This document shows positions 1-31,569 of a DNA stretch of 35,373 nt, piece after piece. The stretch spans positions 1-35,373 of IMG/VR virus record IMGVR_UViG_3300030330_000091; one strand, given 5' to 3'. The notes below the pieces were generated by a model, which was not told the origin of the DNA, ran no database searches, and saw only the letters and a list, made by a program, of their open reading frames with translations. The translations under genes were made by a program, and so were the position numbers. The stretch comes from a virus. Lineage: Duplodnaviria; Caudoviricetes. Each line of letters begins with the position of its first letter. Position 1 is the first letter of the stretch.

Positions 1-54
1 AAATTACCTTGACGAAGAATTAACTTCGACAACAGCCAAGACAAGGAGATATAC

Positions 55-564
55 ATGGCTAATACAACATTCTCAGGACCTATACGTTCTGAAAGCACTA
101 TTAAAACTATTAGTAAAGACGGAACTACTGGAACCATTACAGAGATTACAACACTTGGTGGCGCACCAGTTAGCTTATCTGATGGTGACGTAACCTTAAC
201 TAATGCAACTCACAGTGGTAGAATTTTACTTGTGCCAGATGGATCTCAGGATAATACATACACATTACCTGCTCCTATAGCTGGATCTTCATTTAGATTT
301 GTTTATGCTGGTGGAGCTGCTGATGGAACAGATGCTTTAATTGTTACACCTGGCAATTCAAACTTTTACATTGGAGGAGTAACATTTTTAGATACTGATG
401 GTAATGAAGTAAGTTCAGTTTTTTCTGATGGTAACTCAAACAGCAGTATTCAATTAAATGTTCCTGCTGGATTTGATGTGACTATTGTTGGCATTGATAC
501 GACTAACTATCAAATTTTTGGTAACGTAACATCAACGACAGCTCCAGCTTTTGCTGATCAATAA
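55..564 (+). CDS. putative virion structural / capsid-associated protein
   Basis: 169 aa Thr/Ser/Gly-rich beta-type protein; AAGGAG RBS at 43-48; N-terminus MANTTFSGPIRS recalls proteins following the major capsid gene in marine podophages. Confidence 0.6.
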   Translation: MANTTFSGPIRSESTIKTISKDGTTGTITEITTLGGAPVSLSDGDVTLTNATHSGRILLVPDGSQDNTYTLPAPIAGSSFRFVYAGGAADGTDALIVTPGNSNFYIGGVTFLDTDGNEVSSVFSDGNSNSSIQLNVPAGFDVTIVGIDTTNYQIFGNVTSTTAPAFADQ

Positions 565-15596: not shown

Positions 15597-17435
15597 ATGG
15601 CAAAGACACCAACATTAACTTCTGGATTAACTGTAAGCTCACCTGGCGTTTCATCTACTCCTACAAGTCAAATGGGTTTGTTAGGTTCTTTGCTTGAGAA
15701 AATAGGAGTTAAACCTTTAGCTCAACAATTAGCAGAAGAACAAGCTCAAAAAGATAGAGCTATATTGAGTAAAGATTTAGATACACAAAAAGGACAGACT
15801 CAATTATCACAACTTGGATTAGGACCTGTTTCTTTTTCTGATGATGTACAAAATTTTATTAATCAAGATGCAATTAACAAACAAAGAATTGCAGAAAAAG
15901 AAAAAGAATTAGCATCTAAAAGTTTAAGCAATGTTGAAGGAGCATCTACTGTTGACTCTGCACAATTAGGTGATAAATCTGCTGGTATTGATCAAGATGT
16001 ATCTGGTTTAGGAGCTGATAAAAAAGCACAATTAGATGATCAGTTTGAAATAGCAGCAGGCTCTGATGCAGACATAGACTATAGTGATGTCGGTGAGCCT
16101 GGCTCAGAAGCTCCAGAGGAGAAAGCAACTCCCGAAACAACTTTAGCTAAAGAACAAAAAGCATTACAAGATTTATTTACTGAAACTATGTCAGAAACAG
16201 AAGAGTTATATAGTGATGAAATAACAAAAGCTCAACCTAAAAGTATTGAAGAATATAAAGCAGATTTTCAAAAGGCAACTGGTATAGATATATCGGGAGA
16301 ACCTGATAACAAATCAGCTCTTATGGCTCTTGGTTTAAAGCTAATGCAAAACAGAGCTGGTAAGGGCTTTGATTTATCAAAGATACTTACAGAAGTTGGT
16401 AGAGCAGGAGAAGAAACATTACCTGCTTTTGAAAGAGCAAAAGACAAAGCAAGAGCTGGTCAATTAGCCGCTGGTAAGTTTGCACTAGGACAGAAGATGG
16501 CTGATACAAAAGCATTAGCTGCTCTAAACAAAGAAAAGAGATTAGCTTTACTAGGTCTTGGCAAAGAGTTTAGAGGTAAAGCTGAAGCTAGAAGACTAGC
16601 AGCCGCCAAACACCTAAATGCTGTTGAATTAAAAGAATTAGAGTTTACTCAAAAAAGATTAGAAGCATTCCGTAAGGGACAAGCAAAACTATCTGAGATA
16701 ACAAAGAATCAAGGATTTGCACCTATTGATGGACAAACTCAATTAAAGGTATTTAAAGCTTTAAGAAAAGATGCAAGCGTGGGCAATCCTCTTGTTTATA
16801 CACAAGCACCTGATGATATTAGAAGATTTAAAGATTCTTATGGTAATATAACAAGAGCAAGAAATACGTTAAGTAGTATTGGAGGTTTGGTACAAGATTT
16901 AGGTTCTGAGACTGGATCTCCATTAGCAGATCAAGTCTTTGACAAAGTAAGAAATGTTGGTGTTGCTATTGGTCTTGATCCAAAACAATTGTTCGGTAAA
17001 TTGGTTACAGTTGGTAAAGATGGAAAAGCAGAACTTGTTGAAGGTGTATCAAGAGCTGATATGATACAAGTTTTAAATAGAACTTTAATAAATGAATATA
17101 AGAAGTTTTTAACACAAGAAACTGGTAATGGTATATCAAATCAAGACGTACAGAGACTTGAAGAAGCTTTAGGTAAAATAGATTTATTTACAAACCCACA
17201 ATTAGCATTACAAAGAATAAATGAAATCGATCAGATATTTGCTAAGACACAAGATCAAATTACAAATACACTCACTGGTTTTAAAGATAGGAATAGTTAT
17301 CTAACTGACGATCAGTTTGATAGGGCGCAGAAAGAACTTAGAGCAGGGACTGTGGAACAGTTTGGTAAGTCAGGACCTAAGTTTAACGTATCAACTGCTG
17401 ATGATGGAACAATAACTTATACTTTGGTTAAATAA
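15597..17435 (+). CDS. internal virion (ejection) protein
   Basis: 612 aa helical/coiled coil; position between pilot protein and large internal protein. Confidence 0.55.
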   Translation: MAKTPTLTSGLTVSSPGVSSTPTSQMGLLGSLLEKIGVKPLAQQLAEEQAQKDRAILSKDLDTQKGQTQLSQLGLGPVSFSDDVQNFINQDAINKQRIAEKEKELASKSLSNVEGASTVDSAQLGDKSAGIDQDVSGLGADKKAQLDDQFEIAAGSDADIDYSDVGEPGSEAPEEKATPETTLAKEQKALQDLFTETMSETEELYSDEITKAQPKSIEEYKADFQKATGIDISGEPDNKSALMALGLKLMQNRAGKGFDLSKILTEVGRAGEETLPAFERAKDKARAGQLAAGKFALGQKMADTKALAALNKEKRLALLGLGKEFRGKAEARRLAAAKHLNAVELKELEFTQKRLEAFRKGQAKLSEITKNQGFAPIDGQTQLKVFKALRKDASVGNPLVYTQAPDDIRRFKDSYGNITRARNTLSSIGGLVQDLGSETGSPLADQVFDKVRNVGVAIGLDPKQLFGKLVTVGKDGKAELVEGVSRADMIQVLNRTLINEYKKFLTQETGNGISNQDVQRLEEALGKIDLFTNPQLALQRINEIDQIFAKTQDQITNTLTGFKDRNSYLTDDQFDRAQKELRAGTVEQFGKSGPKFNVSTADDGTITYTLVK

Positions 17436-20605: not shown

Positions 20606-21051
20606 ACATAGAACAATTAAGAGAAACTCTCAAAATTGACGAGGGAAATGTGAAATCCGTGTACCTTGATCATTTAAATCTGGCTACAGTGGGCATAGGA
20701 CATTTGATTACTGAATGGGATGAAGAGTATGGTAAGCCAGTTGGCACACCAGTATCAGAAGAGCGAGTAAACGAATTATTTGACAAAGACATCCAGATTA
20801 CGATTGACGAGTGCGAACAATTATTCGGTAACTTTCAAGATTTGCCAGAAGAAGTACAGCAAATTCTGGCGAACATGATGTTTAATCTCGGCAGACCTCG
20901 TCTATCCAAATTCAGGAAGCTATGTAAAGCTGTGGCTGAAAGAAACTGGAAAGAATGTGCAATTCAAATGGAAGACTCGAAATGGCACAAGCAAGTAACC
21001 AAACGCGCTGATCGTCTAATCTCTCGTATGAATGCTGTTGATAGCACCTAA
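20602..21051 (+). CDS. endolysin, T4-like lysozyme (GH24)
   Basis: DEG...YLDHLNLATVGIGHL with E-D-T catalytic pattern; NMMFNLG and SKWHKQV..RA motifs. Confidence 0.9.
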   Translation: MNIEQLRETLKIDEGNVKSVYLDHLNLATVGIGHLITEWDEEYGKPVGTPVSEERVNELFDKDIQITIDECEQLFGNFQDLPEEVQQILANMMFNLGRPRLSKFRKLCKAVAERNWKECAIQMEDSKWHKQVTKRADRLISRMNAVDST

Positions 21052-21228
21052 TCCTAAACTGGTAACTTTACTTTTGTATTTACTATATTCTTCTTTATCA
21101 AACTCTTGATCAATCATTAAACTTAATTGTTGTCTAATGTATCGTCTTTGATGCTCACATATCTTAATTAATTTATCATAACTTTTACGATCTAAGCCAA
21201 CAGACTTGAATTTTGAAATATCTGTCAT
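21016..21228 (-). CDS. small DNA-binding regulator (ribbon-helix-helix-like)
   Basis: Only convincing minus-strand gene; GGAGGT RBS at 21240-21235; 70 aa MTDISKFKSVGLDRKSYDKLIKIC...IRQQLSLMID with strand-helix-helix pattern. Confidence 0.6.
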   Translation of the reverse strand: MTDISKFKSVGLDRKSYDKLIKICEHQRRYIRQQLSLMIDQEFDKEEYSKYKSKVTSLGLGAINSIHTRD

Positions 21229-21234
21229 TATACT
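21206..21234 (+). promoter_or_regulatory. putative sigma70 promoter for DUF1064 gene (leaderless)
   Basis: TTGAAT (21206-11)-N17-TATACT (21229-34); ATG 21241 is 7 nt downstream and has no SD. Confidence 0.55.
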
Positions 21235-21240
21235 ACCTCC

Positions 21241-21618
21241 ATGACCCATACATACCCATTTATACCCAAAAAGAATAGAACAAGCAACAATAAGTATTTT
21301 GCAAAAAAAACAATTGCTATGGGATTAAAGTTTGATTCTAGGTGGGAAGCAGAGAGATGGGGACAACTAAAAGCTATGGAAAGAGCTGGTGTCATTACAG
21401 AGTTAGAACGTCAAATAAAATATGAATTGTCTGTAAATGATGTAAAGATTTGCGATTACATAGCTGATTTTAGATACTTACAACAAGAAGAAGATGGCTT
21501 TTCAAGATTAGTTGTAGAGGATGCAAAAGGTGTGCTGACACCTGAGTTTAAGCTAAAAAAGAAGATGATGAAAGCCATACATAATATAGACATTCATCTA
21601 TCATACAAAAAAAAATGA
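21241..21618 (+). CDS. DUF1064 family PD-(D/E)XK endonuclease
   Basis: NKY.AKK...FDSRWEAERW...LERQ...YIADFRY...VVEDAKG motifs. Confidence 0.85.
   Translation: MTHTYPFIPKKNRTSNNKYFAKKTIAMGLKFDSRWEAERWGQLKAMERAGVITELERQIKYELSVNDVKICDYIADFRYLQQEEDGFSRLVVEDAKGVLTPEFKLKKKMMKAIHNIDIHLSYKKK
21259..21287 (-). promoter_or_regulatory. putative promoter of the regulator gene
   Basis: Minus strand TTGCTT (21287-82)-N17-TATAAA (21264-59). Confidence 0.4.
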
Positions 21619-21629
21619 TAGTTTAAGTA

Positions 21630-21657
21630 TTGACATTGTTGTAATCATCGCTATATT
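21630..21657 (+). promoter_or_regulatory. sigma70-like promoter of replication operon
   Basis: TTGACA (21630-35)-N16-TATATT (21652-57) in the intergenic gap. Confidence 0.55.
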
Positions 21658-21697
21658 TAACCTTGCAAGTAGAAATTTTAACGAAAGTGAGGTTAGT

Positions 21698-22132
21698 ATG
21701 GAACAGAATTTCTATGACATGAGTGATCACGAACTTTTACAGGCAAAGATGTCTATAAAACGTGAGATTGATCGATATAAAAAGAAAATGGAAGAGCTTA
21801 ACGGCTATCTTACCGATAGATACTTTAGTATTGCTCGTGAAGATTTGCAAAGACAAGGCAAAGATTTCGGTACGACTACTGTGTTTTCTGATCAAGAAGA
21901 TAAAGTTAAGGTCTCCATAGCAAAAAAAGTAACATGGGATCAACAAGCATTAAGAGATGCTTTCGATAGTATGAATGCTGATGATGCAAGACACTATGCA
22001 AAAGTCACATACTCTGTTGACGAGAGGAAATATACAAATGCTCCTCCAGCTATAGTAGAAATGCTTCAACCAGCTAGAACTGTCGAGCAAGGTACTATTA
22101 ATGTTGATCTTGTACAACAAGAGGAGGCTTAA
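21698..22132 (+). CDS. conserved phage replication-module protein
   Basis: 144 aa, GAGGT RBS; KDFGT, KKVTWDQ and PARTV motifs recalled from genes upstream of phage AAA_24 genes. Confidence 0.65.
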   Translation: MEQNFYDMSDHELLQAKMSIKREIDRYKKKMEELNGYLTDRYFSIAREDLQRQGKDFGTTTVFSDQEDKVKVSIAKKVTWDQQALRDAFDSMNADDARHYAKVTYSVDERKYTNAPPAIVEMLQPARTVEQGTINVDLVQQEEA

Positions 22133-22999
22133 TTGGCTTTACAAATAATCACTGCCGAACAACGTATGGCAGAAAAGAGAGGTCATAAGATGGTTATCTG
22201 TGGTCAAAGTGGTGTGGGCAAGACAACTCTTGCCCGAACCCTTGATCCTGATAAAACATTGTTCATTGACCTTGAGGCAGGTGACACTGCTATTAAGGAT
22301 TTTCCCATTGATGTAATTAGACCAAATACATGGCAAGAATGTCGTGATTTTGTTTGTTACATTGGTGGTGTTAATCCGTCACTGTCAAGAGAGCCTTATG
22401 ATCATATTCATTATGAAAGAGTCATGCAGGAACATGGTGATGAATTTCACAAAAAACTTGTCAAGTATGATACTATTTTTGTTGATAGTATCACAGTTGC
22501 AGGACGTTTGTGTTTTCAATACTGTATGTCACATCCCGATAATATTATAGAGAGATCAGGTAAAGTAGATACTCGTTCTGCCTATGGTATGCACGGAAGG
22601 GAGATGATGGCATGGCTTACTCATTTACAACATATTAGGGACAAGAATGTTATTTTAGTTGGCATACTTGACTCTAAGGTAGATGACTATGGTCGAACTA
22701 ACTATGAGTTACAAATCGAGGGTTCTAAAACTGCACGAGAACTGCCTGGCATTGTTGATGAAGTTATCACAATGACAGTTATGGGTGGTGGAGATGGTGT
22801 GCAACCATATAGAGCTTTTGTTTGTCAAACTCTTAACGAGTGGGGATACCCAGCTAAAGATAGATCAGGAAAGCTTGATGTTGTTGAAGAACCACATCTT
22901 GGTAAACTTATAAGTAAGCTTAACGGATCTGCACAGAAAAAGGATTTAACATTTGTTGATCCACAATCACAACCAACAGAGAGAGGAGAAGTCCAGTGA
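22133..22999 (+). CDS. AAA_24 family (Sak4-like) ATPase
   Basis: TTG start with GGAGG RBS; Walker A GQSGVGKT, DLEAG, Walker B IFVDSIT, AKDRSG. Confidence 0.85.
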   Translation: MALQIITAEQRMAEKRGHKMVICGQSGVGKTTLARTLDPDKTLFIDLEAGDTAIKDFPIDVIRPNTWQECRDFVCYIGGVNPSLSREPYDHIHYERVMQEHGDEFHKKLVKYDTIFVDSITVAGRLCFQYCMSHPDNIIERSGKVDTRSAYGMHGREMMAWLTHLQHIRDKNVILVGILDSKVDDYGRTNYELQIEGSKTARELPGIVDEVITMTVMGGGDGVQPYRAFVCQTLNEWGYPAKDRSGKLDVVEEPHLGKLISKLNGSAQKKDLTFVDPQSQPTERGEVQ

Positions 23000-23589
23000 T
23001 TGATTTAAATAATATTGAAAGTGGGGGTGGATCTGATTTTGATCTTATCCCTGATGGCACTATTGCAAGAGCGATTATTACCATTCAACCTAACCCTTTA
23101 ACTATACCTGAGTTTAGTAATACTCCTTTATTTAGGGCATCACAAACCACATCAGCTAAGTGGCTTGAAGTTGAGTACACCATTATTGGTGGTCAATTTG
23201 ATAAACGTAAGTTTTGGAGCAAGCACTTTTTTGATGGTGATGCTAAAGATGATAATGGTGTATCTAAGTCTAAGAAGATTGGATTGCAGTGGTTAAAATC
23301 AGTTGTTGAAAGTCATAATAATGTTTCAGCAATGGATGCTTCACCTGAAGCTCAAGCAGTTAGGCAAATAGATATGCAAAAAGGTGGAATTGCATCTATA
23401 AATGGCATGAACGTATGTGTTAAGATTAAAATTGAAAAAGGCACTAATGGTTATGCTGATCAAAATAGATGTGCAGTTGTAATGACACAAGGTATGGAAG
23501 GTTATATACCAAGTGGATCTGCACCAACTAACACACCATCACCTGCACCTACCAATAATGGTAATGCAGTGCCTGATTGGGCTAGGTAA
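22996..23589 (+). CDS. putative single-stranded DNA-binding protein (DUF669-like)
   Basis: GTG start, AGGAG RBS; FDLIPDGT, GQFDKRKFW, Pro-rich tail ending PDWAR; follows AAA_24. Confidence 0.65.
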   Translation: MIDLNNIESGGGSDFDLIPDGTIARAIITIQPNPLTIPEFSNTPLFRASQTTSAKWLEVEYTIIGGQFDKRKFWSKHFFDGDAKDDNGVSKSKKIGLQWLKSVVESHNNVSAMDASPEAQAVRQIDMQKGGIASINGMNVCVKIKIEKGTNGYADQNRCAVVMTQGMEGYIPSGSAPTNTPSPAPTNNGNAVPDWAR

Positions 23590-23591
23590 TG

Positions 23592-23676
23592 ATGGTAGGC
23601 ATAGCAAGGGCTAACTGACCTTAGTCTACTTGCAAGTCGCTTGGGTAGTGCGATGCCCTAAAACTACCCACCATTT
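23592..23676 (+). ncRNA. candidate structured RNA (two hairpins plus pseudoknot)
   Basis: Stem GCAAG-GGCTAA/TTAGTC-TA-CTTGC (23604-33); stem TGGGTAGT/ACTACCCA (23642-70); its loop GCGATGCC pairs 7/8 with GGCATAGC (23598-605); closing ATGGT/ACCAT. Confidence 0.45.
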
Positions 23677-23694
23677 ATAGCCAATGAGGATCTT

Positions 23695-23982
23695 ATGAAA
23701 ACGTATGAACAAGCAAAGCAAGAATATGATGAACAGATTTCAAAAGCTTTGGCTCGCATTGATAAAATAAAAAAAACAAAAACTTTTGATTTTGAATGTC
23801 CTCAATGTAAAAAAGTTAAAAAAATTTTAGTGATTAGAATGAAGCAAGGCAGACAAGGTTTAAAATATTGTCATGCAAATTGCAGACAAGCCGCTCAAAG
23901 ACAAAGGGATAAACAAAAGTTTATTGATGAAATTAACATTTTAAAAAAAAGAATTATAGAATTAGAAAATGAGAAAAATTAA
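23695..23982 (+). CDS. hypothetical Zn-finger/coiled-coil protein
   Basis: 95 aa, GAGGA RBS, CPQC...YCHANC. Confidence 0.6.
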   Translation: MKTYEQAKQEYDEQISKALARIDKIKKTKTFDFECPQCKKVKKILVIRMKQGRQGLKYCHANCRQAAQRQRDKQKFIDEINILKKRIIELENEKN

Positions 23983-24139
23983 ATATTTTGTTGATATGCG
24001 ACCACATAATTTAGGTAAGTCATTACATTGTCAAATATGTAATGCCATTGTTTTTCCACTTACGTCTGATGGCAAAAAGATCGTTAATGAATGTAAATGT
24101 ACAAAACAACAGTTAAAAGCTAGGAAAATTTACAAATGA
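23969..24139 (+). CDS. small Zn-ribbon protein
   Basis: Not in ORF track; 56 aa with CQIC...CKC; fills the gap and has ATGA overlap with the helicase. Confidence 0.5.
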   Translation: MRKIKYFVDMRPHNLGKSLHCQICNAIVFPLTSDGKKIVNECKCTKQQLKARKIYK

Positions 24140-25818
24140 TTCTTAGACCATATCAAGAAATAGCAGTACAAGATGCTTCTAATGCTTTGGACAAGCATAA
24201 GAATACTATTGTTGTTGCACCAACGGGAGCAGGTAAAACAATTATGCTATCTGCATTGATTGGCAAACGATACCAAAAAGGTAAAAAGATTTTAGTTCTA
24301 CAACATCGGGATGAACTTGTAGGACAGAACAAAAACAAATTTTCTCGTGTTAATCCAAAAATATCTACATCTATCGTAGATGCTTCAGAAAAAAATTGGG
24401 ATGGTAGCACAGTATTTAGTATGGTGCAGACACTATCGAGACCGAACAATTTGGCTAATATGTCTAAAGTAGACATGATGGTGATAGACGAAAGTCACCA
24501 TGCCATAGCCGATACATACATGAGAATTATCAACAAGGTTAAAGAAGCTAATGAATCTGTAGAGATTGTTGGCTTTACTGCAACACCTAATCGTGGAGAC
24601 AGAAAAGGTTTAAAAGGTGTGTTCAATAATTGCTCACATCAGATCGAAATAGCTAACCTTATACGAGAGGGTTTTCTTGTGCCACCAAAAACATTCGTGA
24701 TTGATGTCGGGGTACAAAAAGATTTACAAAATGTTCGTAAAACTGTGTCAGATTTTGACATGGGACAAGTCGAGCAGATTATGAACAAACGTGCTATCAA
24801 CGAGAAGATTGTTGAGGAGTGGCAGGAGAAAGCAGGAAACAGAAAGACAGTTATATTTTGTAGCACAGTGGTTCATGCACAAGATCTATGTGATGAGTTT
24901 AGAAGATCGGAGATTCGTGCAGAGATTGTGACAGGTGAGACACCATCGGAAGAAAGAAAAAAAATACTACATGATCTGGAACATGGTGACGTACAAGTCG
25001 TGGTTAATGTTGCAGTATTGACAGAGGGTTTTGATGCACCACCTGTCAGTTGTATTGTGCTTACAAGACCATGCTCATACAAGTCTACAATGGTGCAGAT
25101 GATTGGTCGTGGACTACGAACAATAGATCCTGAAGAACATCCAAACGTAATCAAGAAAGATTGTATTGTATTAGATTTCGGTACGAGTGTATTGACACAT
25201 GGATCTTTGGATGAGGGTGTTGATCTTGATGGCAAAGATAAGATGCAACAAGGATCAGCTCCTGAGAAAGTATGTCCTAATTGTAAATGTCTTATACCAT
25301 TAAGTGTTCGTGTATGTCCTATGTGTGGACATGAGATTGAGATGCAAGCAAAAGAATTGCTTGAGACATTTGACATGACAGAGGTAGATCTTATCGACAG
25401 ATCACCATTTAGATGGATTGATTTGTTTAACAATGGCAGATGTATGTCAGCCAGTGGATTTAATGGTTTTGGTTTAGTTGCGCATTTAGATGACGTTTCT
25501 GTAGCCTTAGTTAAACGTACAAGGGGTAAACTTAGAGTTGTGGGTGTAGGCACTAAAGAACAAGCTTTGGCTTCTGCTGACGATTTTTTGAGGGAAATAG
25601 AAGATAGTGACGGAGCTAAGAAAGGTAAGAGATGGCTAAACCAAGCTATGACAGACAGACAAAGAGAAGCTTTAGCAAGAGAGAACAAGATTGTAAGTCA
25701 GTTGGATCTTAGTTTTAGCAAGTACAAAGCGGCGTGTTGGTTAAATTATTTGTGGAATAAGAAAGAAATTGATGGCAGAGTTTTAGATTATTACGAAGGA
25801 GATGAGAATGCAGCGTAG
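24136..25818 (+). CDS. SF2 DEAD/DEAH-box helicase with C-terminal Zn ribbon
   Basis: LRPYQ, APTGAGKT, DESHH, TATP, LTEGFD, QMIGRGLR; CPNC...CPMC. Confidence 0.92.
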   Translation: MILRPYQEIAVQDASNALDKHKNTIVVAPTGAGKTIMLSALIGKRYQKGKKILVLQHRDELVGQNKNKFSRVNPKISTSIVDASEKNWDGSTVFSMVQTLSRPNNLANMSKVDMMVIDESHHAIADTYMRIINKVKEANESVEIVGFTATPNRGDRKGLKGVFNNCSHQIEIANLIREGFLVPPKTFVIDVGVQKDLQNVRKTVSDFDMGQVEQIMNKRAINEKIVEEWQEKAGNRKTVIFCSTVVHAQDLCDEFRRSEIRAEIVTGETPSEERKKILHDLEHGDVQVVVNVAVLTEGFDAPPVSCIVLTRPCSYKSTMVQMIGRGLRTIDPEEHPNVIKKDCIVLDFGTSVLTHGSLDEGVDLDGKDKMQQGSAPEKVCPNCKCLIPLSVRVCPMCGHEIEMQAKELLETFDMTEVDLIDRSPFRWIDLFNNGRCMSASGFNGFGLVAHLDDVSVALVKRTRGKLRVVGVGTKEQALASADDFLREIEDSDGAKKGKRWLNQAMTDRQREALARENKIVSQLDLSFSKYKAACWLNYLWNKKEIDGRVLDYYEGDENAA

Positions 25819-26089
25819 TGAAGCTTTACAAAAAGCCGAACAATTAATCAACGGAGCTAGGGCTAGAACACACGGAGATGCAAAAGATACACATGAATCA
25901 ATAGCTAAGATTATGAACGTATTGTGGAGACACAAACTTAAAGCAGAACTTACTTATGATGACATATATAAATTTTGTATAGTGCAAAAGCTTGTTCGAG
26001 ACTCTCAGAACCCAAAGAATATGGACAATCCAATAGATGTAATAGGATACGGAGCTTTGTGGGCAGAGGGTAAAAGTGGCAAAAATTAA
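25808..26089 (+). CDS. DUF6378-like protein
   Basis: ATG 25808 with AAGGAG; RARTHGDA...KLVR...DNPIDVIGYGAL. Confidence 0.7.
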   Translation: MQRSEALQKAEQLINGARARTHGDAKDTHESIAKIMNVLWRHKLKAELTYDDIYKFCIVQKLVRDSQNPKNMDNPIDVIGYGALWAEGKSGKN

Positions 26090-26369
26090 CGTGGATTATC
26101 AACTCAACATGAGGTCTAAGAGTAATGTGCAGTATATTCGTGAGGGCAGTATAGTTGTGCCTGTTTTTTTAGAGGATAATAACGATCATGTCTTAGATCA
26201 CATTGATAAATTTATTACAGAAGCTATTGATGATACAGATGATGAGTTGTTAGGTGGTACAATAGTGGCTGAATTTTTAGGAATCAGTCATTATTTTGAT
26301 TTTATGGTAATGGAAGAAGGAGAAAAAAGATGGAACAACATGGTAACGGGGACAGACACAATACATTAA
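26076..26369 (+). CDS. hypothetical acidic protein
   Basis: 97 aa, GTG start overlapping the previous gene. Confidence 0.55.
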   Translation: MAKINVDYQLNMRSKSNVQYIREGSIVVPVFLEDNNDHVLDHIDKFITEAIDDTDDELLGGTIVAEFLGISHYFDFMVMEEGEKRWNNMVTGTDTIH

Positions 26370-26545
26370 AGATATTGTCCGAACAATTTGCAAAGATAGG
26401 CTGGGATAAAAAGTTACAGAATTTGACACAGGACGAAGCACTTGCCATAATTGATGCCATCAATTCAGCTAGTGGAGTCAATAGTGGCGTTCTCGACCTT
26501 AATCCAAACACAGACATATTCGATGAAGACGAGATCCCATTTTAA
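26330..26545 (+). CDS. small acidic protein (DUF6511-like)
   Basis: 71 aa, AAGGAG RBS; IGWDKKL and C-terminal DEDEIPF (SSB-tail-like). Confidence 0.6.
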   Translation: MEQHGNGDRHNTLKILSEQFAKIGWDKKLQNLTQDEALAIIDAINSASGVNSGVLDLNPNTDIFDEDEIPF

Positions 26546-26546
26546 A

Positions 26547-27254
26547 ATGCTAGAACAAAACATATCAGATATAATAGATAAATCTATTGTTGATCGGAAC
26601 AAAGAGGTCAAGAAAAGAACTTACATTGGTGCTTCTAGTCTCGGTGACTCATGCTCTCGTAAAATACAATATCGTTACATGGGTCAGCCTATTGATGATA
26701 ATCGGGATTTTGATGCCAAAACACTTCGTATATTTCAGTTTGGACACGAGATAGAATTTAGTGTAGCTGGGTGGCTTAGACAAGCTGGATTTGATTTACG
26801 AGTGCAGGACAAAAATGGCGAACAATTTGGTTTTAGCATAGCAGAAGGTGAAGTTAAGGGTCACATAGATGGTGTGATATGTAACGGACCTTTGGATACC
26901 GAATATCCTATGTTATGGGAATGCAAGTCAGCTAACGAAAGAAAATTTAAGGAATTTCAAATTAAGGGTGTGGCAATAGCTAACCCTGTGTATGCAGCAC
27001 AGGTTGCTTTGTATCAAGCTTATATGAAATTAACAGATAATCCTTGTCTGTTTACAGTATTAAACAAAAATACAAGTGAGATATATTATGAGTTTATACC
27101 TTTTAACAAAGCTTTGGCACAAGAGGTAAGTGACAAAGCAGTGATGATATTAGAAGCCACAAAAGCAAATGAGATGTTGCCAAGGATTGCACAGTCTCGT
27201 GATTACTTTGCTTGTAAGTTTTGTGAGTTTCAAGATAGTTGTTGGAGTGTTTAA
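26547..27254 (+). CDS. Cas4-like / PD-(D/E)XK exonuclease
   Basis: ATG 26547; YIGASSLG..C.R, GHIDG, WECKS, Y.AQ...Y and CKFC...C (four-Cys Fe-S pattern). Confidence 0.8.
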   Translation: MLEQNISDIIDKSIVDRNKEVKKRTYIGASSLGDSCSRKIQYRYMGQPIDDNRDFDAKTLRIFQFGHEIEFSVAGWLRQAGFDLRVQDKNGEQFGFSIAEGEVKGHIDGVICNGPLDTEYPMLWECKSANERKFKEFQIKGVAIANPVYAAQVALYQAYMKLTDNPCLFTVLNKNTSEIYYEFIPFNKALAQEVSDKAVMILEATKANEMLPRIAQSRDYFACKFCEFQDSCWSV

Positions 27255-27314
27255 TATGAGGACGAAGGTAGCATCGCCCTCATATACTTCAGCCAATGAA
27301 GTGGGGTCAGTATA
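27254..27314 (+). promoter_or_regulatory. structured leader of primase gene
   Basis: Hairpins ATATGAGG/CCTCATAT (27254-85) and ACTTCA/TGAAGT (27286-302); alternative TATACT/AGTATA pairing. Confidence 0.4.
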
Positions 27315-29489
27315 ATGAACATTATAAAACTTGGCAATAAGAATAGGGATATGTCAGCCAATGAATTAGTCGATATGATTAGTCAGAAAGTCCCAGCCAG
27401 TGTGCAAATCGATGAACTAAAAAATACATTTCCACATGGAATTGTTCGGGGTGATGTGTTTACAATCGGGTCATTAGATGGAGAAGCTGGTAAATCATTA
27501 AAGATAGATATTAATCCCAGATCACCATATTTTATGAAGGGATCAGATTTCAACGGATCACAGGGCATCGGGGGTATTGTTAAGATATTAATGGAAGGAA
27601 GAGGTATGCGCCTTCCTGAAATCAAAGAATTGTTCGGAAACTATCTGGATGATAATACTCCTCCACCAGTTGATCAGGACATACCACAAGAGCTTGGCAT
27701 TACATTTAAAAGAGCTATTGATATTAATACACCATACGACTCCGAACATTTATACCTGTCTGGTGATGGTGAAATCCTGTGTCGTGTTAGAAGATACAAC
27801 ATAAAAGACAATGCTGGTAATCCAGTTATGGATAGTCATGGCAAGCCCAAGAAAGAATTTAGACAATTTACAGATTCACCATATCCAAGAATACCTGATG
27901 TAAGACCATTGTATAACATACCTAACATTGTGGCTTCTGAGAAAGTCATATGGGTTGAAGGAGAGAAATGTGCTGATGCTTTAAATGAGATTGGTTACAC
28001 TGCTACCTGTACTATGGGAGGTGCAGGAATGTTATCTCGTAAATCAGCCAGTCGTTTTGATTTTAGCCCATTACGAGATAAAGAACTAATCATATGGGGA
28101 GACAATGACAATGCAGGTCGTAAGGTAGCTGAACTGGTTCAGGAACTGGCATTGAATGCAGGAGCTAGATCGGTAACTACATTGACTCCTCCCAGAGGTA
28201 AGCCAGAGGGTTGGGATGCAGTTGATGCCATATCGGAGAGCTTTGATGTACAACATTTCTTAAACACAACAGTTAAGCATACTAAACGTAACATTAATTT
28301 ACTGGATGATAGTTTACTGGTTAGCAGATTTGAAGGCAATGCACCCGAACAAAAGTTCTTAGTCGATGGCACGTTTCCGTTGGGTGTACCAATTATATTT
28401 TCTGCAGCAGGAGACGCTGGTAAGGGTATGATGACACTGGATTTAGCAATGAAAGTAGCATCGGGTCAGCCTTTAGCAGAGAGTTTTGGTAGCACTATAG
28501 GTGAATTTGGCAATGTTGTGATCTTTACAGCAGAGGATGATGAGTCAGAAATGCACAGGAGAATTGAGCGTTTAGATCCGAACAATTTGAGATTTTCGTA
28601 CAGGCATGAGCTTCGTGTAGTCTCACTGCCTAACGTGGGAGGTGTCTTTCCAATACTTCAGGACACAAGAGATGGTTATAGCACCAGTGATGAGTTTAAT
28701 AAACTTTACGAACAAATCTTGCAAATGAATGATTTAAAGTTGATTATCTTTGATCCTTTGGCTTCTTTTGTTCATGCAGATGTAAATGCAGATCCAGCAG
28801 CAGGAGCTGCCTTGACTGGTTTACTGGCACAGATCGGGACAGAAACTGGAGCTTCTGTGGTCATGTGTCATCATATGACTAAAGTTAAAGATGATACAAT
28901 CATTAATACTCCTGAACAAGCAAGATTGCTTATTCGTGGCACTTCAGCACTTGTTGATGGTGTTAGATGTGCTTTTGCACTTTGGCAAGTTGATGAAGCT
29001 ACTGGTCGTAGACGTTGTATGGATATAGGCACAGATTATGAAAGAAACAGATGCTTTGATGGAGCAGTTGTAAAAAGTAATGGACCTGCTAACAGAAACA
29101 TTAGACATTTCGTTAGAAATAGTTACTCTGGATTATTAGAAGACAAGACAGAGGAGATCAAACGATTACACTCTGGCACAAACAGAGAGATTAAGAAAGA
29201 TGCTCTGTTTGCTTGGATTGCAACCTGTGAGAGGGAGGGCAGGGCTTTGACACAACAGTCAGGAGCAGATGCAATAGGACAAAGATTAGCATCGGATCAC
29301 GATGCACCACAAGTATTGCAGAATTTAACACAAAGAAGTATTGACGGAATTGTTCGGGAACTTATAAGAGAATCACGAATCGGGAAATACTCATTCACAG
29401 CATCGGGTGGTCGTAAATGGCTTGGGACAACAGATGGAGTTATGTCTCAGGGTGAATACGAAGCCACAACAGCAACGGATAATGTCTAA
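27315..29489 (+). CDS. primase-helicase (Toprim + AAA_25/RepA-like)
   Basis: WVEGEKCADAL, GDNDNAG and GWDAVD Toprim motifs; AAGDAGKG Walker A, IFDP, HHMTK, RGTSALVD. Confidence 0.88.
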   Translation: MNIIKLGNKNRDMSANELVDMISQKVPASVQIDELKNTFPHGIVRGDVFTIGSLDGEAGKSLKIDINPRSPYFMKGSDFNGSQGIGGIVKILMEGRGMRLPEIKELFGNYLDDNTPPPVDQDIPQELGITFKRAIDINTPYDSEHLYLSGDGEILCRVRRYNIKDNAGNPVMDSHGKPKKEFRQFTDSPYPRIPDVRPLYNIPNIVASEKVIWVEGEKCADALNEIGYTATCTMGGAGMLSRKSASRFDFSPLRDKELIIWGDNDNAGRKVAELVQELALNAGARSVTTLTPPRGKPEGWDAVDAISESFDVQHFLNTTVKHTKRNINLLDDSLLVSRFEGNAPEQKFLVDGTFPLGVPIIFSAAGDAGKGMMTLDLAMKVASGQPLAESFGSTIGEFGNVVIFTAEDDESEMHRRIERLDPNNLRFSYRHELRVVSLPNVGGVFPILQDTRDGYSTSDEFNKLYEQILQMNDLKLIIFDPLASFVHADVNADPAAGAALTGLLAQIGTETGASVVMCHHMTKVKDDTIINTPEQARLLIRGTSALVDGVRCAFALWQVDEATGRRRCMDIGTDYERNRCFDGAVVKSNGPANRNIRHFVRNSYSGLLEDKTEEIKRLHSGTNREIKKDALFAWIATCEREGRALTQQSGADAIGQRLASDHDAPQVLQNLTQRSIDGIVRELIRESRIGKYSFTASGGRKWLGTTDGVMSQGEYEATTATDNV

Positions 29490-29691: not shown

Positions 29692-29710
29692 AAAAAATTT
29701 ATATTTATAC

Positions 29711-29777
29711 TTGACTATCATGTAATGAATACTATATACAACTATTATGAACTATCATAATAGGAGCAAGTAGATGA
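29711..29777 (+). promoter_or_regulatory. promoter/RBS cassette copy 1
   Basis: TTGACTAT...AACTATCAT..ATAGGAGCAAGTAGATGA after an AT-rich tract. Confidence 0.6.
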
Positions 29778-30282: not shown

Positions 30283-31505
30283 TGGAAGTTAATGATAAGC
30301 CATTGATGGCAAGTGAAATCATTGGTGCTTTGGGTCAGCCTAAGAGAGCCATTGCACATTTTAAAAGTGGATCTATTGCAGAGGGTAAGGCTAGAGAAAC
30401 TCAGTCTATGCTTGTTAATGCACAGAAGTTTAAGGTCTCTAACAAGCTTATAGATCATGCAGGAGAGGCATCTATGTCTAAGCCTCATGTATTGCTTGAG
30501 ATGATTAAAACTGCAATACCACCATTTAAAAATATGTTTATAGAATGGGATGAGCATTATCGTGTTCATCTTTTGAAAAATCTTTATCATAAATATTTGC
30601 CACAGTATGTAGGCAAGATAGAAGAGCCTAAAGATTATTTAGATCGTATCGGTTATCATATATATGAGTATGAACATCCAAGTGGGGATAGTTGGTATAT
30701 GTATGATATGTGGTGCATGATTGATGGTAAGTGGTTTTGTTCTCCATTATCTTCCGTTGTTCGTAACGAAGAAGAATGGAATATGAATATTGCCTTTTCT
30801 AATTACGTTATGAAAGAGCAGGCATCAAGAGAACTTCCTACTGATACTCGAAACTTTATGATGGATTCAGAAGTGTTTATAAAAGAGGTTGCCCATCAAA
30901 GTATTAAGATCATTGGACATCCATATTCTTTGGCACATTTTAATGACAGTGATAAGTTGTTTAGGGCAAAGTCATTAGATCATAATCGTGATGAATATAA
31001 GTTAATGCTCGATATTTATTCTAGGTTTACTACTGTGCAAAGTAGAGCCATGCATTGGCTTATTCCAAAGCAAAAATTCAAGCAAGGTTGGGATAATGAT
31101 GAGATGGCAGAACTTTCTAAAACTCACTTGCAATTAATTCAAGGTGGTGACGTTAGGTTTATCATTAGTGTGCTTTCTATCCTTAATTACGATTTAATCG
31201 TCAAGGAGACACAGAAACCTGCTGATCATAAGGTAAAGCACGTTAGGTTTGGAAGAAGTGTCCCTACGAATGAATATAGCCTTTTAAATATAGAGTTGCC
31301 TAAACCTAGAGGTAAGACTGTTTATGAAAAGATATTTACAGGTCAAGGCACTCCGAAGAAGTGGCATATGAGACGTGGGCATTGGAGACGTTATCGTGAT
31401 AAGCATGGCAATATAACCAAAAGAATTTGGATTGATCAATGTGAAGCAGGTAGCAAAGAGCATGGTCAAAAGATTAAAGATTATAATTTACAAAAAAGTA
31501 GTTGA
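30282..31505 (+). CDS. hypothetical phage protein with C-terminal HxRRGHWR motif
   Basis: 407 aa; PPFKNMFIEW near the N-terminus and WHMRRGHWRRY...RIWI at the C-terminus. Confidence 0.7.
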   Translation: MEVNDKPLMASEIIGALGQPKRAIAHFKSGSIAEGKARETQSMLVNAQKFKVSNKLIDHAGEASMSKPHVLLEMIKTAIPPFKNMFIEWDEHYRVHLLKNLYHKYLPQYVGKIEEPKDYLDRIGYHIYEYEHPSGDSWYMYDMWCMIDGKWFCSPLSSVVRNEEEWNMNIAFSNYVMKEQASRELPTDTRNFMMDSEVFIKEVAHQSIKIIGHPYSLAHFNDSDKLFRAKSLDHNRDEYKLMLDIYSRFTTVQSRAMHWLIPKQKFKQGWDNDEMAELSKTHLQLIQGGDVRFIISVLSILNYDLIVKETQKPADHKVKHVRFGRSVPTNEYSLLNIELPKPRGKTVYEKIFTGQGTPKKWHMRRGHWRRYRDKHGNITKRIWIDQCEAGSKEHGQKIKDYNLQKSS

Positions 31506-31569
31506 CTATGCAATCAATACAATGTAACAATATCAATAACTATCATTTTTTATAGGAGCAAGTAGATGA
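31502..31569 (+). promoter_or_regulatory. promoter/RBS cassette copy 2
   Basis: TTGACTAT...AACTATCAT...ATAGGAGCAAGTAGATGA, same layout as 29711. Confidence 0.6.

What the first reader, a model, noticed from the sequence alone, without database searches (positions are those of the whole stretch)
23592..23676. Candidate structured small RNA complementary to the leaders of three phage transcription units
Seen: the gap after the SSB gene can fold into two hairpins (23604-33, 23642-70), with a pseudoknot-capable loop (GCGATGCC vs GGCATAGC at 23598) and closing ATGGT/ACCAT; no U-tract follows the stems. TCTACTTGCAAG (23625-36) is the exact reverse complement of CTTGCAAGTAGA (21662-73), just downstream of its own operon promoter. 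TCTACTTGC also complements GCAAGTAGA between the SD and ATG of genes 29774 and 31566. The loop GCGATGC complements GCATCGC (27271-77) in the primase leader hairpin. Established: phage P1 C4 and P4 CI are processed antisense RNAs acting on several leader sites. Inference: an undescribed multi-target antisense switch, or alternatively a DNA operator present in both orientations.
Basis: partly seen in the sequence, partly recalled or inferred. Interest (0 to 1): 0.75.

Follow-up and report, generated by a model that had tools for sequence, protein, structure and literature searches.

The report
Knotted phage RNA targeting own leaders
Many uncultured phages carry a small, doubly knotted RNA-like sequence in their DNA-replication operon, and its two exposed stretches match, and change together with, the start region of that operon's message, so it likely pairs with the message and blocks its translation.

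Summary
The 66-nt element (23604-23669) follows the putative SSB gene in 313 of 331 SSB loci (redundant). Compensatory changes support a double pseudoknot; the proposed pseudoknot and primase-loop pairing are not conserved. It has two seeds. One (23625-33) complements the predicted 5' end of the operon leader: 108 of 109 distinct promoter/seed pairs match there. A second, missed seed (23614-23) complements the same leader's ribosome-binding region and co-varies with it across clades. A model built without leaders found the element in a third, distant clade, where both seeds and leaders are new yet matched. In this window the four best-pairing gene starts of 49 are the three proposed targets plus primase. 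No Rfam match. No transcript was seen; repression and action in trans are inferred. It works like P4 CI or P1 C4 RNA but is not in those families. The scan noted similar post-SSB antisense or pseudoknot RNAs on other phage DNA (e1-9780649, e1-7968947).

The parts
23604..23669 (+). Whole structured RNA element, about 66 nt, double pseudoknot
   Evidence: Covariance model hit 23602-23671, E 1e-17, model built from an alignment that includes it
23604..23608 (+). Strand a: internal copy of the target's 5' end; pairs with 23629-33 (helix P1)
   Evidence: Changes with its partner between clades
23607..23611 (+). Strand b (core 23609-11): pairs with 23655-59 (helix P2); its first two bases are shared with strand a and can pair with either partner
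   Evidence: 3 of 5 pairs change on both sides, 100% paired in 21 sequences; 5-6 bp extension in 35 of 45 distinct elements
23614..23623 (+). Seed 2: hairpin loop region complementary to the ribosome-binding region of the operon leader
23625..23633 (+).
23636..23654 (+). Helix P4 (23636-40 with 23650-54); its loop carries the pseudoknot strand 23643-49
   Evidence: 18 sequence types among 45 distinct elements, each 5-6 bp; 5 of 6 pairs change on both sides
23655..23669 (+). Partner of strand b (23655-59), A-rich linker, and 3' pseudoknot strand (23663-69 with 23643-49)
   Evidence: Six pseudoknot sequence types; one pair changes on both sides
21630..21657 (+). Sigma-70-type promoter of the replication operon (11 of 12 consensus matches)
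   Evidence: conserved -35 in relatives; not shown to fire
21665..21673 (+). Target site 1 at the predicted transcription start of the operon
   Evidence: Offset 35 from the -35 hexamer; 108 of 109 promoter/seed pairs
21688..21697 (+). Target site 2: ribosome-binding region of the first gene (start 21698); 10 pairs with seed 2, two of them G-U
29766..29774 (+). Seed-1 site between Shine-Dalgarno and start codon of accessory gene 29774 (DUF3846)
31558..31566 (+). Seed-1 site between Shine-Dalgarno and start codon of accessory gene 31566
27302..27311 (+). Seed-2 site over the primase ribosome-binding region (clade-restricted, variable)
   Evidence: Best seed-2 match of 49 gene starts; -8.7 to -10.9 kcal/mol in 7 of 10 distinct leaders of this clade, about -5 in 3, weak in most other clades
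21698..23589 (+). Upstream cistrons: gene 21698 (PHROG 2480, unknown), Sak4-like annealase, putative SSB (no SSB family hit; name rests on position after Sak4 and on recalled features)

Best explanation
The 66-nt element after the putative SSB gene has two stretches that are complementary to, and co-vary with, the 5' end and the ribosome-binding region of its own operon's leader; it likely folds as a double-pseudoknot RNA that pairs with that leader, and with leaders of other early genes, and would block ribosome loading. Shown by calls: conservation, intramolecular covariation, two-site seed/target covariation, multiple matching leaders. Inferred: the element is transcribed from the operon promoter (21630-57); the two knots would protect it from exonucleases so that it persists as a small RNA; seed 2 would first touch the ribosome-binding site, the leader's 5' end would then displace the RNA's own look-alike strand a, and the freed bases would lengthen helix P2 and lock the complex. 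Result (inferred): negative feedback that caps or times synthesis of the first replication gene, the translationally coupled Sak4 and SSB genes, and accessory early genes as the RNA accumulates.
For: Element directly after SSB in 313 of 331 SSB loci, whatever gene follows; one copy in each of 5 near-complete genomes. Fold: 97.2% of cells paired, 9 of 22 pairs changed on both sides, covariation score 0.379 vs 0.201 +/- 0.014, slid controls 30-45% paired. Seed 1: five or more Watson-Crick pairs starting 32-38 nt after the -35 hexamer in 108 of 109 distinct promoter/seed pairs, at most 5 of 109 at any offset below 32 or above 39; cross-clade controls 3 of 90 and 0 of 19. Seed 2: own leader beats foreign leaders (-9.9 vs -5.8 kcal/mol over 9 SSB clades, 2 of 100000 permutations; 5 clades 813 of 100000, the floor for n = 5). 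Single-base compensations between close relatives: loop CCGC/leader GCGG vs loop CTGC/leader GCAG (L281 vs L287) and L239 vs L164. Out of sample: a model without leaders found the element 1.2 kb further downstream in a clade at 35-38% SSB identity (8 of 13 loci); its new seed matches a new leader motif TAACAGC, and each of 4 different loops pairs best with its own leader (best of 24 permutations). Multi-target: in TCTAG clades the motif also precedes the SSB ribosome-binding site in 40 of 45 distinct leaders and the helicase site in 24 of 44 (background 4.5% per 40 nt); in this clade, where the seed changed, SSB leaders have neither motif (0 of 18). In the window the top four of 49 gene starts are 21698, 31566, 29774 and 27315.
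Against: No transcript evidence: the one RNA run has 7 short contigs here, none over the element. Tree-independent pairs: 11 for, 5 against, 9 ties (sign test p = 0.105; signed-rank p = 0.01; 9 vs 1 at a post hoc 0.5 kcal/mol cut). Seed 2 is weak or not cognate-best in L026, L073, L198/L201 and L258. With strand a left in place, predicted binding is near zero in some TCTAG clades (0 to -2 kcal/mol in 7 of 24 representatives; pseudoknot gains not modelled). One covariation measure (further pair types, 15 vs 16.4) is not above shuffles. The TCTAG before SSB is always in frame in the Sak4 tail (40 of 40), so protein-level or shared-ancestry conservation may contribute. Across whole loci, TCTAG/ACTAG sites are only modestly enriched for a seed-2 match (62 of 414 vs 9.5% for foreign loops). 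Sign of regulation and cis versus trans action are untested.
Confidence: 0.64

Rival explanations
1. Same pairing but only in cis: once transcribed, the element folds back 1.9 kb onto the 5' leader of its own message, closing it into a loop and shutting the first gene; other matches are incidental or secondary.
For: Only the operon leader carries both sites in nearly every clade; leader and element lie on one predicted transcript; no promoter or terminator of its own is evident.
Against: Seed-1 sites recur in leaders of separate accessory promoters in several clades and change with the seed; the distance varies from 1.9 to 3.7 kb and the element moves 1.2 kb in the third clade.
Confidence: 0.15
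2. Pairing is real but the effect is not repression of the leader: either the leader acts as the signal that pulls the element off the next gene's ribosome-binding site (turning helicase on), or the RNA caps and stabilises leader 5' ends.
For: A second copy of strand a lies just before the next gene's ribosome-binding site in 41 of 57 distinct non-window-clade elements, sometimes with a seed-2 match (L156); target site 1 sits at the predicted +1.
Against: That copy is absent in 9 of 9 elements of this clade and in 11 of 18 AT-rich ones; in the third clade site 1 is internal to the leader; a 9-10 bp helix between Shine-Dalgarno and start codon (29766, 31558) is hard to reconcile with activation (established knowledge of initiation).
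Confidence: 0.12
3. The RNA is a cleavage guide or ribozyme: it has the strand order of HDV-like ribozymes (P1-P2-P3-P1'-P4-P2'), and would cut or direct a cut just 5' of whichever strand fills P1, releasing itself and severing target messages.
For: Helix connectivity matches the nested double pseudoknot; a cut before site 1 at 29766 and 31558 would fall inside the Shine-Dalgarno sequence (sequence); strand a starts the element.
Against: No J4/2 strand or catalytic cytosine: 0 nt between P4 and P2' in 42 of 45, never more than 1; no GG junction for P1.1; the would-be catalytic loop is the most variable part and tracks the ribosome-binding site.
Confidence: 0.06
4. A DNA operator (or protein-binding site) present in both orientations; the structure is incidental.
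For: The motifs have palindromic cores (CTAG; 23629-36) and overlap +1; a small divergent gene (21016-21249, minus) resembles ribbon-helix-helix proteins (Atlas score 0.92, a lead only).
Against: Cannot explain P2, P4 and pseudoknot covariation or loop/RBS covariation; motif always in sense orientation in SSB leaders, 0 of 63 reversed; the protein's predicted recognition strand is nearly the same in clades with different motifs.
Confidence: 0.03

Closest known systems
CI RNA of satellite phage P4 (passages seen in PMC4825925 and PMC10111431)
   Same: Small RNA encoded inside, and processed from, the transcript it controls; pairs with two complementary sites; limits expression of the phage's own replication genes.
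   Different: No Rfam C4/isrK match; double pseudoknot instead of the C4/CI-type fold; targets cover the 5' end and ribosome-binding site, pointing to a translation block rather than termination; no integrase or resolvase in 5 of 5 near-complete relatives.
C4 antisense RNA of phages P1/P7, Rfam RF01695 (passages in PMC8201110 and PMC2864571; two-loop pairing, RNase P processing and P1/P7 seed differences are recalled)
   Same: Phage antisense RNA with two seeds; seeds differ between relatives together with their targets.
   Different: No sequence or structure match; lies in a replication operon, not an immunity region; carries an internal decoy copy of its target.
Flavivirus class 1 exoribonuclease-resistant RNAs (passages in PMC7749634)
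   Same: Three-way junction, 5' strand pairing into the junction, and a loop-to-3'-tail pseudoknot: the same order of elements if P2 is taken as the closing stem.
   Different: Here the 5' strand makes 5-7 pairs between the two hairpins and is exchangeable for a target; no base triple identified; nuclease resistance untested; a phage, not an RNA virus.
HDV-like and theta ribozymes (passages in PMC10879173)
   Same: Nested double-pseudoknot strand order; occur in phage genomes.
   Different: No J4/2 with catalytic cytosine, no P1.1, variable L3, and an extra pseudoknot on the P4 loop.
STAXI motif (PMC2864571 passage) and T4 gene 32 leader pseudoknot (PMC10690425 passage)
   Same: Pseudoknots next to single-stranded-DNA-binding protein genes.
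   Different: STAXI is a tandem repeat in Enterobacteriales and is not hit in Rfam; the gene 32 knot lies upstream of the gene and binds protein; neither passage describes antisense seeds.

Membership tests
C4 / P4 CI antisense RNAs | Match to the Rfam C4-type models | tested here: not met
   No hit at E <= 1 in the window or 4 relatives, none at E <= 0.1 in 6 distant loci
C4 / P4 CI antisense RNAs | Two separate seeds complementary to sites on the RNA's own operon transcript | tested here: met
C4 / P4 CI antisense RNAs | Processed into a stable small RNA (RNase P; recalled) | not testable with these tools
   Only contigs of one sparse RNA run, none over the element
C4 / P4 CI antisense RNAs | Immunity region of a temperate phage or satellite | tested here: not met
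   Replication operon; no tyrosine integrase or resolvase in 5 of 5 relatives 93-100% complete; plasmid-type lysogeny not excluded
C4 / P4 CI antisense RNAs | Pairing represses target expression | not testable with these tools
   Needs reporter or toeprint assay
HDV-like ribozymes | Nested double pseudoknot order P1, P2, P3, P4 | tested here: met
   Segment order in 45 of 45 distinct elements; partly built into the search pattern
HDV-like ribozymes | J4/2 junction beginning with the catalytic cytosine | tested here: not met
   Junction empty in 42 of 45, one A in 2, one C in 1; feature as stated in PMC10879173
HDV-like ribozymes | P1.1 pairing from a GG junction into a conserved L3 (recalled) | tested here: not met
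   Junction empty in 37 of 45, never GG; loop highly variable
Class 1 xrRNA | Three-way junction with 5' strand pairing into the junction and loop-to-tail pseudoknot | tested here: inconclusive
   Order of elements fits but junction side and length differ from the description in PMC7749634
Class 1 xrRNA | Ring around the 5' end that halts 5'-3' exoribonucleases | not testable with these tools
   Needs RNase J or Xrn1 assay or a structure
STAXI motif | Two or three tandem pseudoknot repeats; Rfam RF01728 match | tested here: not met
   Single copy per genome; no Rfam hit

The most novel reading that the evidence does not exclude
A new class of phage riboregulator: a protein-free, doubly knotted clamp that carries a decoy copy of its target, swaps that decoy for the leader of the target message, and silences several early messages at once; its fast-diverging seeds would sort abundant non-integrating marine phages into RNA-defined exclusion or timing groups. 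At the far edge (about 0.05) the clamp also cuts or directs a cut at the swapped strand.
Probability: 0.3. Interest if true: 0.92.

Novelty: new variant of a known kind. Interest (0 to 1): 0.8.

Why it matters
Few phage antisense RNAs are characterised, and the classic ones (C4, CI, OOP) belong to temperate phages. This family gives a small, testable RNA with naturally occurring matched seed/leader pairs in three seed classes and over 30 loop variants, in uncultured phages with no integrase found. It would show how such phages time or cap replication genes without a protein repressor, it offers a compact fold that resembles xrRNA and HDV architectures put to an antisense use, and the natural pairs are a ready set for orthogonal riboregulators.

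Tried and rejected
Rfam: nothing at the element. MFE folding alone: not significant. Expression: 7 runs listed, one RNA run with a small share; laid, it gives 7 short low-depth contigs, none bridging the element, so no evidence either way. Host: the SSB profile found nothing in genome contigs; a DNA pattern gave 24 hits, of which 2 are real elements after SSB (L218, L223); L223 is phage genes throughout the 20 kb held, so these bins do not name a host; the two SAR116 hits lack the fold and SSB. No cultured phage is close (Sak4 at most 52.5%, helicase at most 42%). AcaML1 and Wolbachia WO loci and L407: no element. The L024-type seed variant could not be tested: its contig lacks the leader and no other viral contig has it. 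Leader counts used a too-loose motif that caught upstream TCTAA runs and were dropped in favour. Alignment A2 used shifted window coordinates and was not used for counts. Stop-codon readthrough or frameshift knot: rejected, two stops in a row and variable spacing. Ribosome-at-stop melting of P1: possible where strand a begins 0-2 nt after the stop, but spacing reaches 10-16 nt, 64 nt (L001) or 1.2 kb. The Atlas look-up for gene 21698 did not complete.

Full report
Context. The window is a 35-kb, 37% G+C fragment of a tailed phage (virus record). Genes 21698-29489 form a replication operon: an unknown first gene (PHROG 2480), a Sak4-like annealase, a putative SSB (only an unknown-function PHROG hit; the name rests on position and recalled features), variable small genes, an SF2 helicase, a Cas4-like exonuclease and a primase/AAA_25 protein. 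No cultured phage is close. Relatives include TARA-named metagenome contigs. Five near-complete relatives have no tyrosine integrase or resolvase. The host is not known.

Observation. The complementarities are in the sequence as stated. On this genome alone they were suggestive only: the fold has z = -1.02, two of the three targets lie in duplicated leader cassettes, and the gap has 20 reverse-complement 9-mer hits. Three details fail in relatives: the proposed pseudoknot (12 of 33 loci), the primase-hairpin complement (2 of 14) and the closing stem.

Conservation. SSB searches gave 205 viral loci, a DNA pattern 120 more viral and 24 genome loci and a metagenome scan 57; several contigs were fetched twice. 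Of 331 loci with an SSB hit, 313 have the element within 200 nt of the stop; of the 18 misses 4 are cut by contig ends, 11 belong to a distant clade treated below, and 3 are remote. Of 118 viral pattern hits examined, 108 lie right after SSB. The gene that follows varies, and reads show the window's two small downstream genes absent in other strains (joint 23689-24132).

Fold. Segment order: a, b, hairpin, a', P4 with a G-rich loop, b', A-rich linker, 3' knot strand. Window coordinates: P1 23604-08/23629-33; P2 23609-11/23655-57, extendable to 23607-11/23655-59; P4 23636-40/23650-54; knot 23643-49/23663-69. Among 45 distinct elements P4 has 18 sequence types, all 5-6 bp, and the knot 6 types (the search pattern fixed the cores of P2 and the knot but not P4). 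On 21 AT-rich sequences, 97.2% of cells pair, 9 of 22 pairs change on both sides (14 of 500 shuffles), the covariation score beats all 500 shuffles, slid registers give 30-45%, and one measure (further pair types) is not above shuffles (P1 left out because its register shifts between clades; the window clade's short hairpin is out of register there too). The last two bases of strand a can pair either in P1 or in P2, and both partners changed with them in the window's clade, which suggests a strand-exchange switch (inference).

Seed 1. Where the element has CTAGA the operon leader starts with TCTAG; where it has the window's seed the leader starts with GCAAGTAGA. Without assuming a motif, 108 of 109 distinct promoter/seed pairs (240 of 254 loci; 14 dropped because no -35 was found or the contig was cut) have five or more Watson-Crick pairs starting 32-38 nt after the -35 hexamer; the miss is a mis-picked -35. 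Cross-clade controls give 3 of 90 and 0 of 19. The motif also marks accessory-gene leaders after the primase in several clades, though many loci show none in the stretch held, SSB leaders in 40 of 45 and helicase leaders in 24 of 44 distinct non-window-clade sequences against a 4.5% background; this clade's SSB leaders have neither motif, 0 of 18. Caveat: the SSB-leader motif is in frame in the Sak4 tail in 40 of 40.

Seed 2 (new). The hairpin loop complements the ribosome-binding region of the same leader, in the antiparallel order expected after seed 1. Over SSB-defined clades the own leader is better than foreign ones: 5 clades 813 of 100000 permutations (the floor), 9 clades 2, 20 clades 0. 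Close relatives show single compensated changes (L281/L287, L269, L239/L164). On tree-independent pairs the count is 11 for, 5 against, 9 ties (p = 0.105); signed-rank p = 0.01; four of the five contrary pairs differ by 0.3 kcal/mol or less. Exceptions with weak pairing are L026, L073, L198/L201 and L258.

Out-of-sample test. A covariance model of the element alone found it in 8 of 13 distant loci (SSB 35-38% or less), about 1.2 kb further downstream, E 1e-12 to 5e-15 (three of the five misses are short contigs, two are remote). These have a third seed, matched by TAACAGC in their leaders, and four different loops, each pairing best with its own leader in every row and column (best of 24 permutations) and better than with 11 leaders of other clades. 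There site 1 lies inside the leader, so a free 5' end is not required.

Window targets. Of 49 gene starts the best four for the exposed strand are 21698 (-23.6 kcal/mol, both seeds), 31566, 29774 (seed 1) and primase 27315 (seed 2; tied with 32786 at -16.3); median -10.3. In a scan of both strands the operon leader is the best site outside the element itself.

Mechanism. Shown: conservation, fold covariation, seed/target covariation. Inferred: transcription from 21630-57, survival as a small RNA through the knots, loop contact then strand exchange, blocked initiation, feedback on replication and accessory early genes (0.64). Rivals: cis-only loop closure (0.15), sensor or stabiliser (0.12), cleavage (0.06), DNA operator (0.03). 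With strand a in place predicted binding is -13.9 kcal/mol for the window but near zero in some clades, so trimming of a or gains from P2 extension would be needed there. No RNA data bear on it.

Comparison. It works like P4 CI RNA, described as processed from its primary transcript and pairing with two sites to prevent expression of replication genes (passages, PMC4825925, PMC10111431), and like P1 C4 (passages, PMC8201110, PMC2864571; mechanistic detail recalled), but it fails Rfam membership. Its connectivity resembles class 1 xrRNAs (passages, PMC7749634) and HDV-like ribozymes (passages, PMC10879173); the catalytic junction is absent. [quoted passage not shown]

Novelty. Nine literature searches showed no description of this element; the library lacks most subscription papers. 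Fremin 2023 (PMC10690425; passages) predicted over ten thousand viral structured RNAs from similar data: four supplementary files searched had no hit, but two archives had no readable text and three files were too large, so the fold may be listed there without a function. PMC5737381 and PMC11109978 were seen as search listings only. The scan's own notes hold similar post-SSB RNAs on other DNA; sequence look-ups found no look-alike of this element, and I could not test whether they are remote kin.

Verdict. A real, uncatalogued phage RNA family with strong comparative evidence for two-site pairing to its own operon leader; a new variant of the phage antisense-RNA kind. Interest 0.8.

Noticed in passing
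L394 4651-4860, L395, L398-L403 (directly after SSB in the distant clade): A second, larger uncatalogued structured region: conserved GNRA-capped hairpin, a long variable hairpin, and a hairpin whose loop complements a stretch just before the next gene's ribosome-binding site, with matching changes in L398. No Rfam hit.
   Followed up: partly
window 27255-27314: Primase leader has two hairpins; the first co-varies within itself around a conserved loop (AGGTAGC) in several clades; the second has a GCCAA loop, and AGCCAATGA recurs before the ribosome-binding site after the element (23679).
   Followed up: partly
window 21615, 29714, 29751, 31539 and gene 21016-21249 (-): An 8-mer and its reverse complement flank the three early promoters; a candidate operator for the small divergent gene, which resembles ribbon-helix-helix proteins.
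   Followed up: partly
L001 9081-9145, L005 10613-10668: A 55-nt hairpin insertion lies between the SSB stop and the element without disturbing it.
   Followed up: no
window 23695-24139: Two small genes after the element are a variable cassette; many relatives go straight to the helicase or carry other genes, and contigs join 23689 to 24132.
   Followed up: partly
window 7-57: Mu-gpT-DE RNA match, 44.8 bits, E 2.4e-07, below the gathering score of 49.
   Followed up: no
window 29700-29776 and 31495-31568: Near-duplicate promoter/leader cassettes head two accessory gene blocks; relatives put different genes behind the same cassette.
   Followed up: partly
L021 about 17030-17105: A tRNA-like sequence precedes the homologue of gene 30282 (seen; not scanned).
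   Followed up: no
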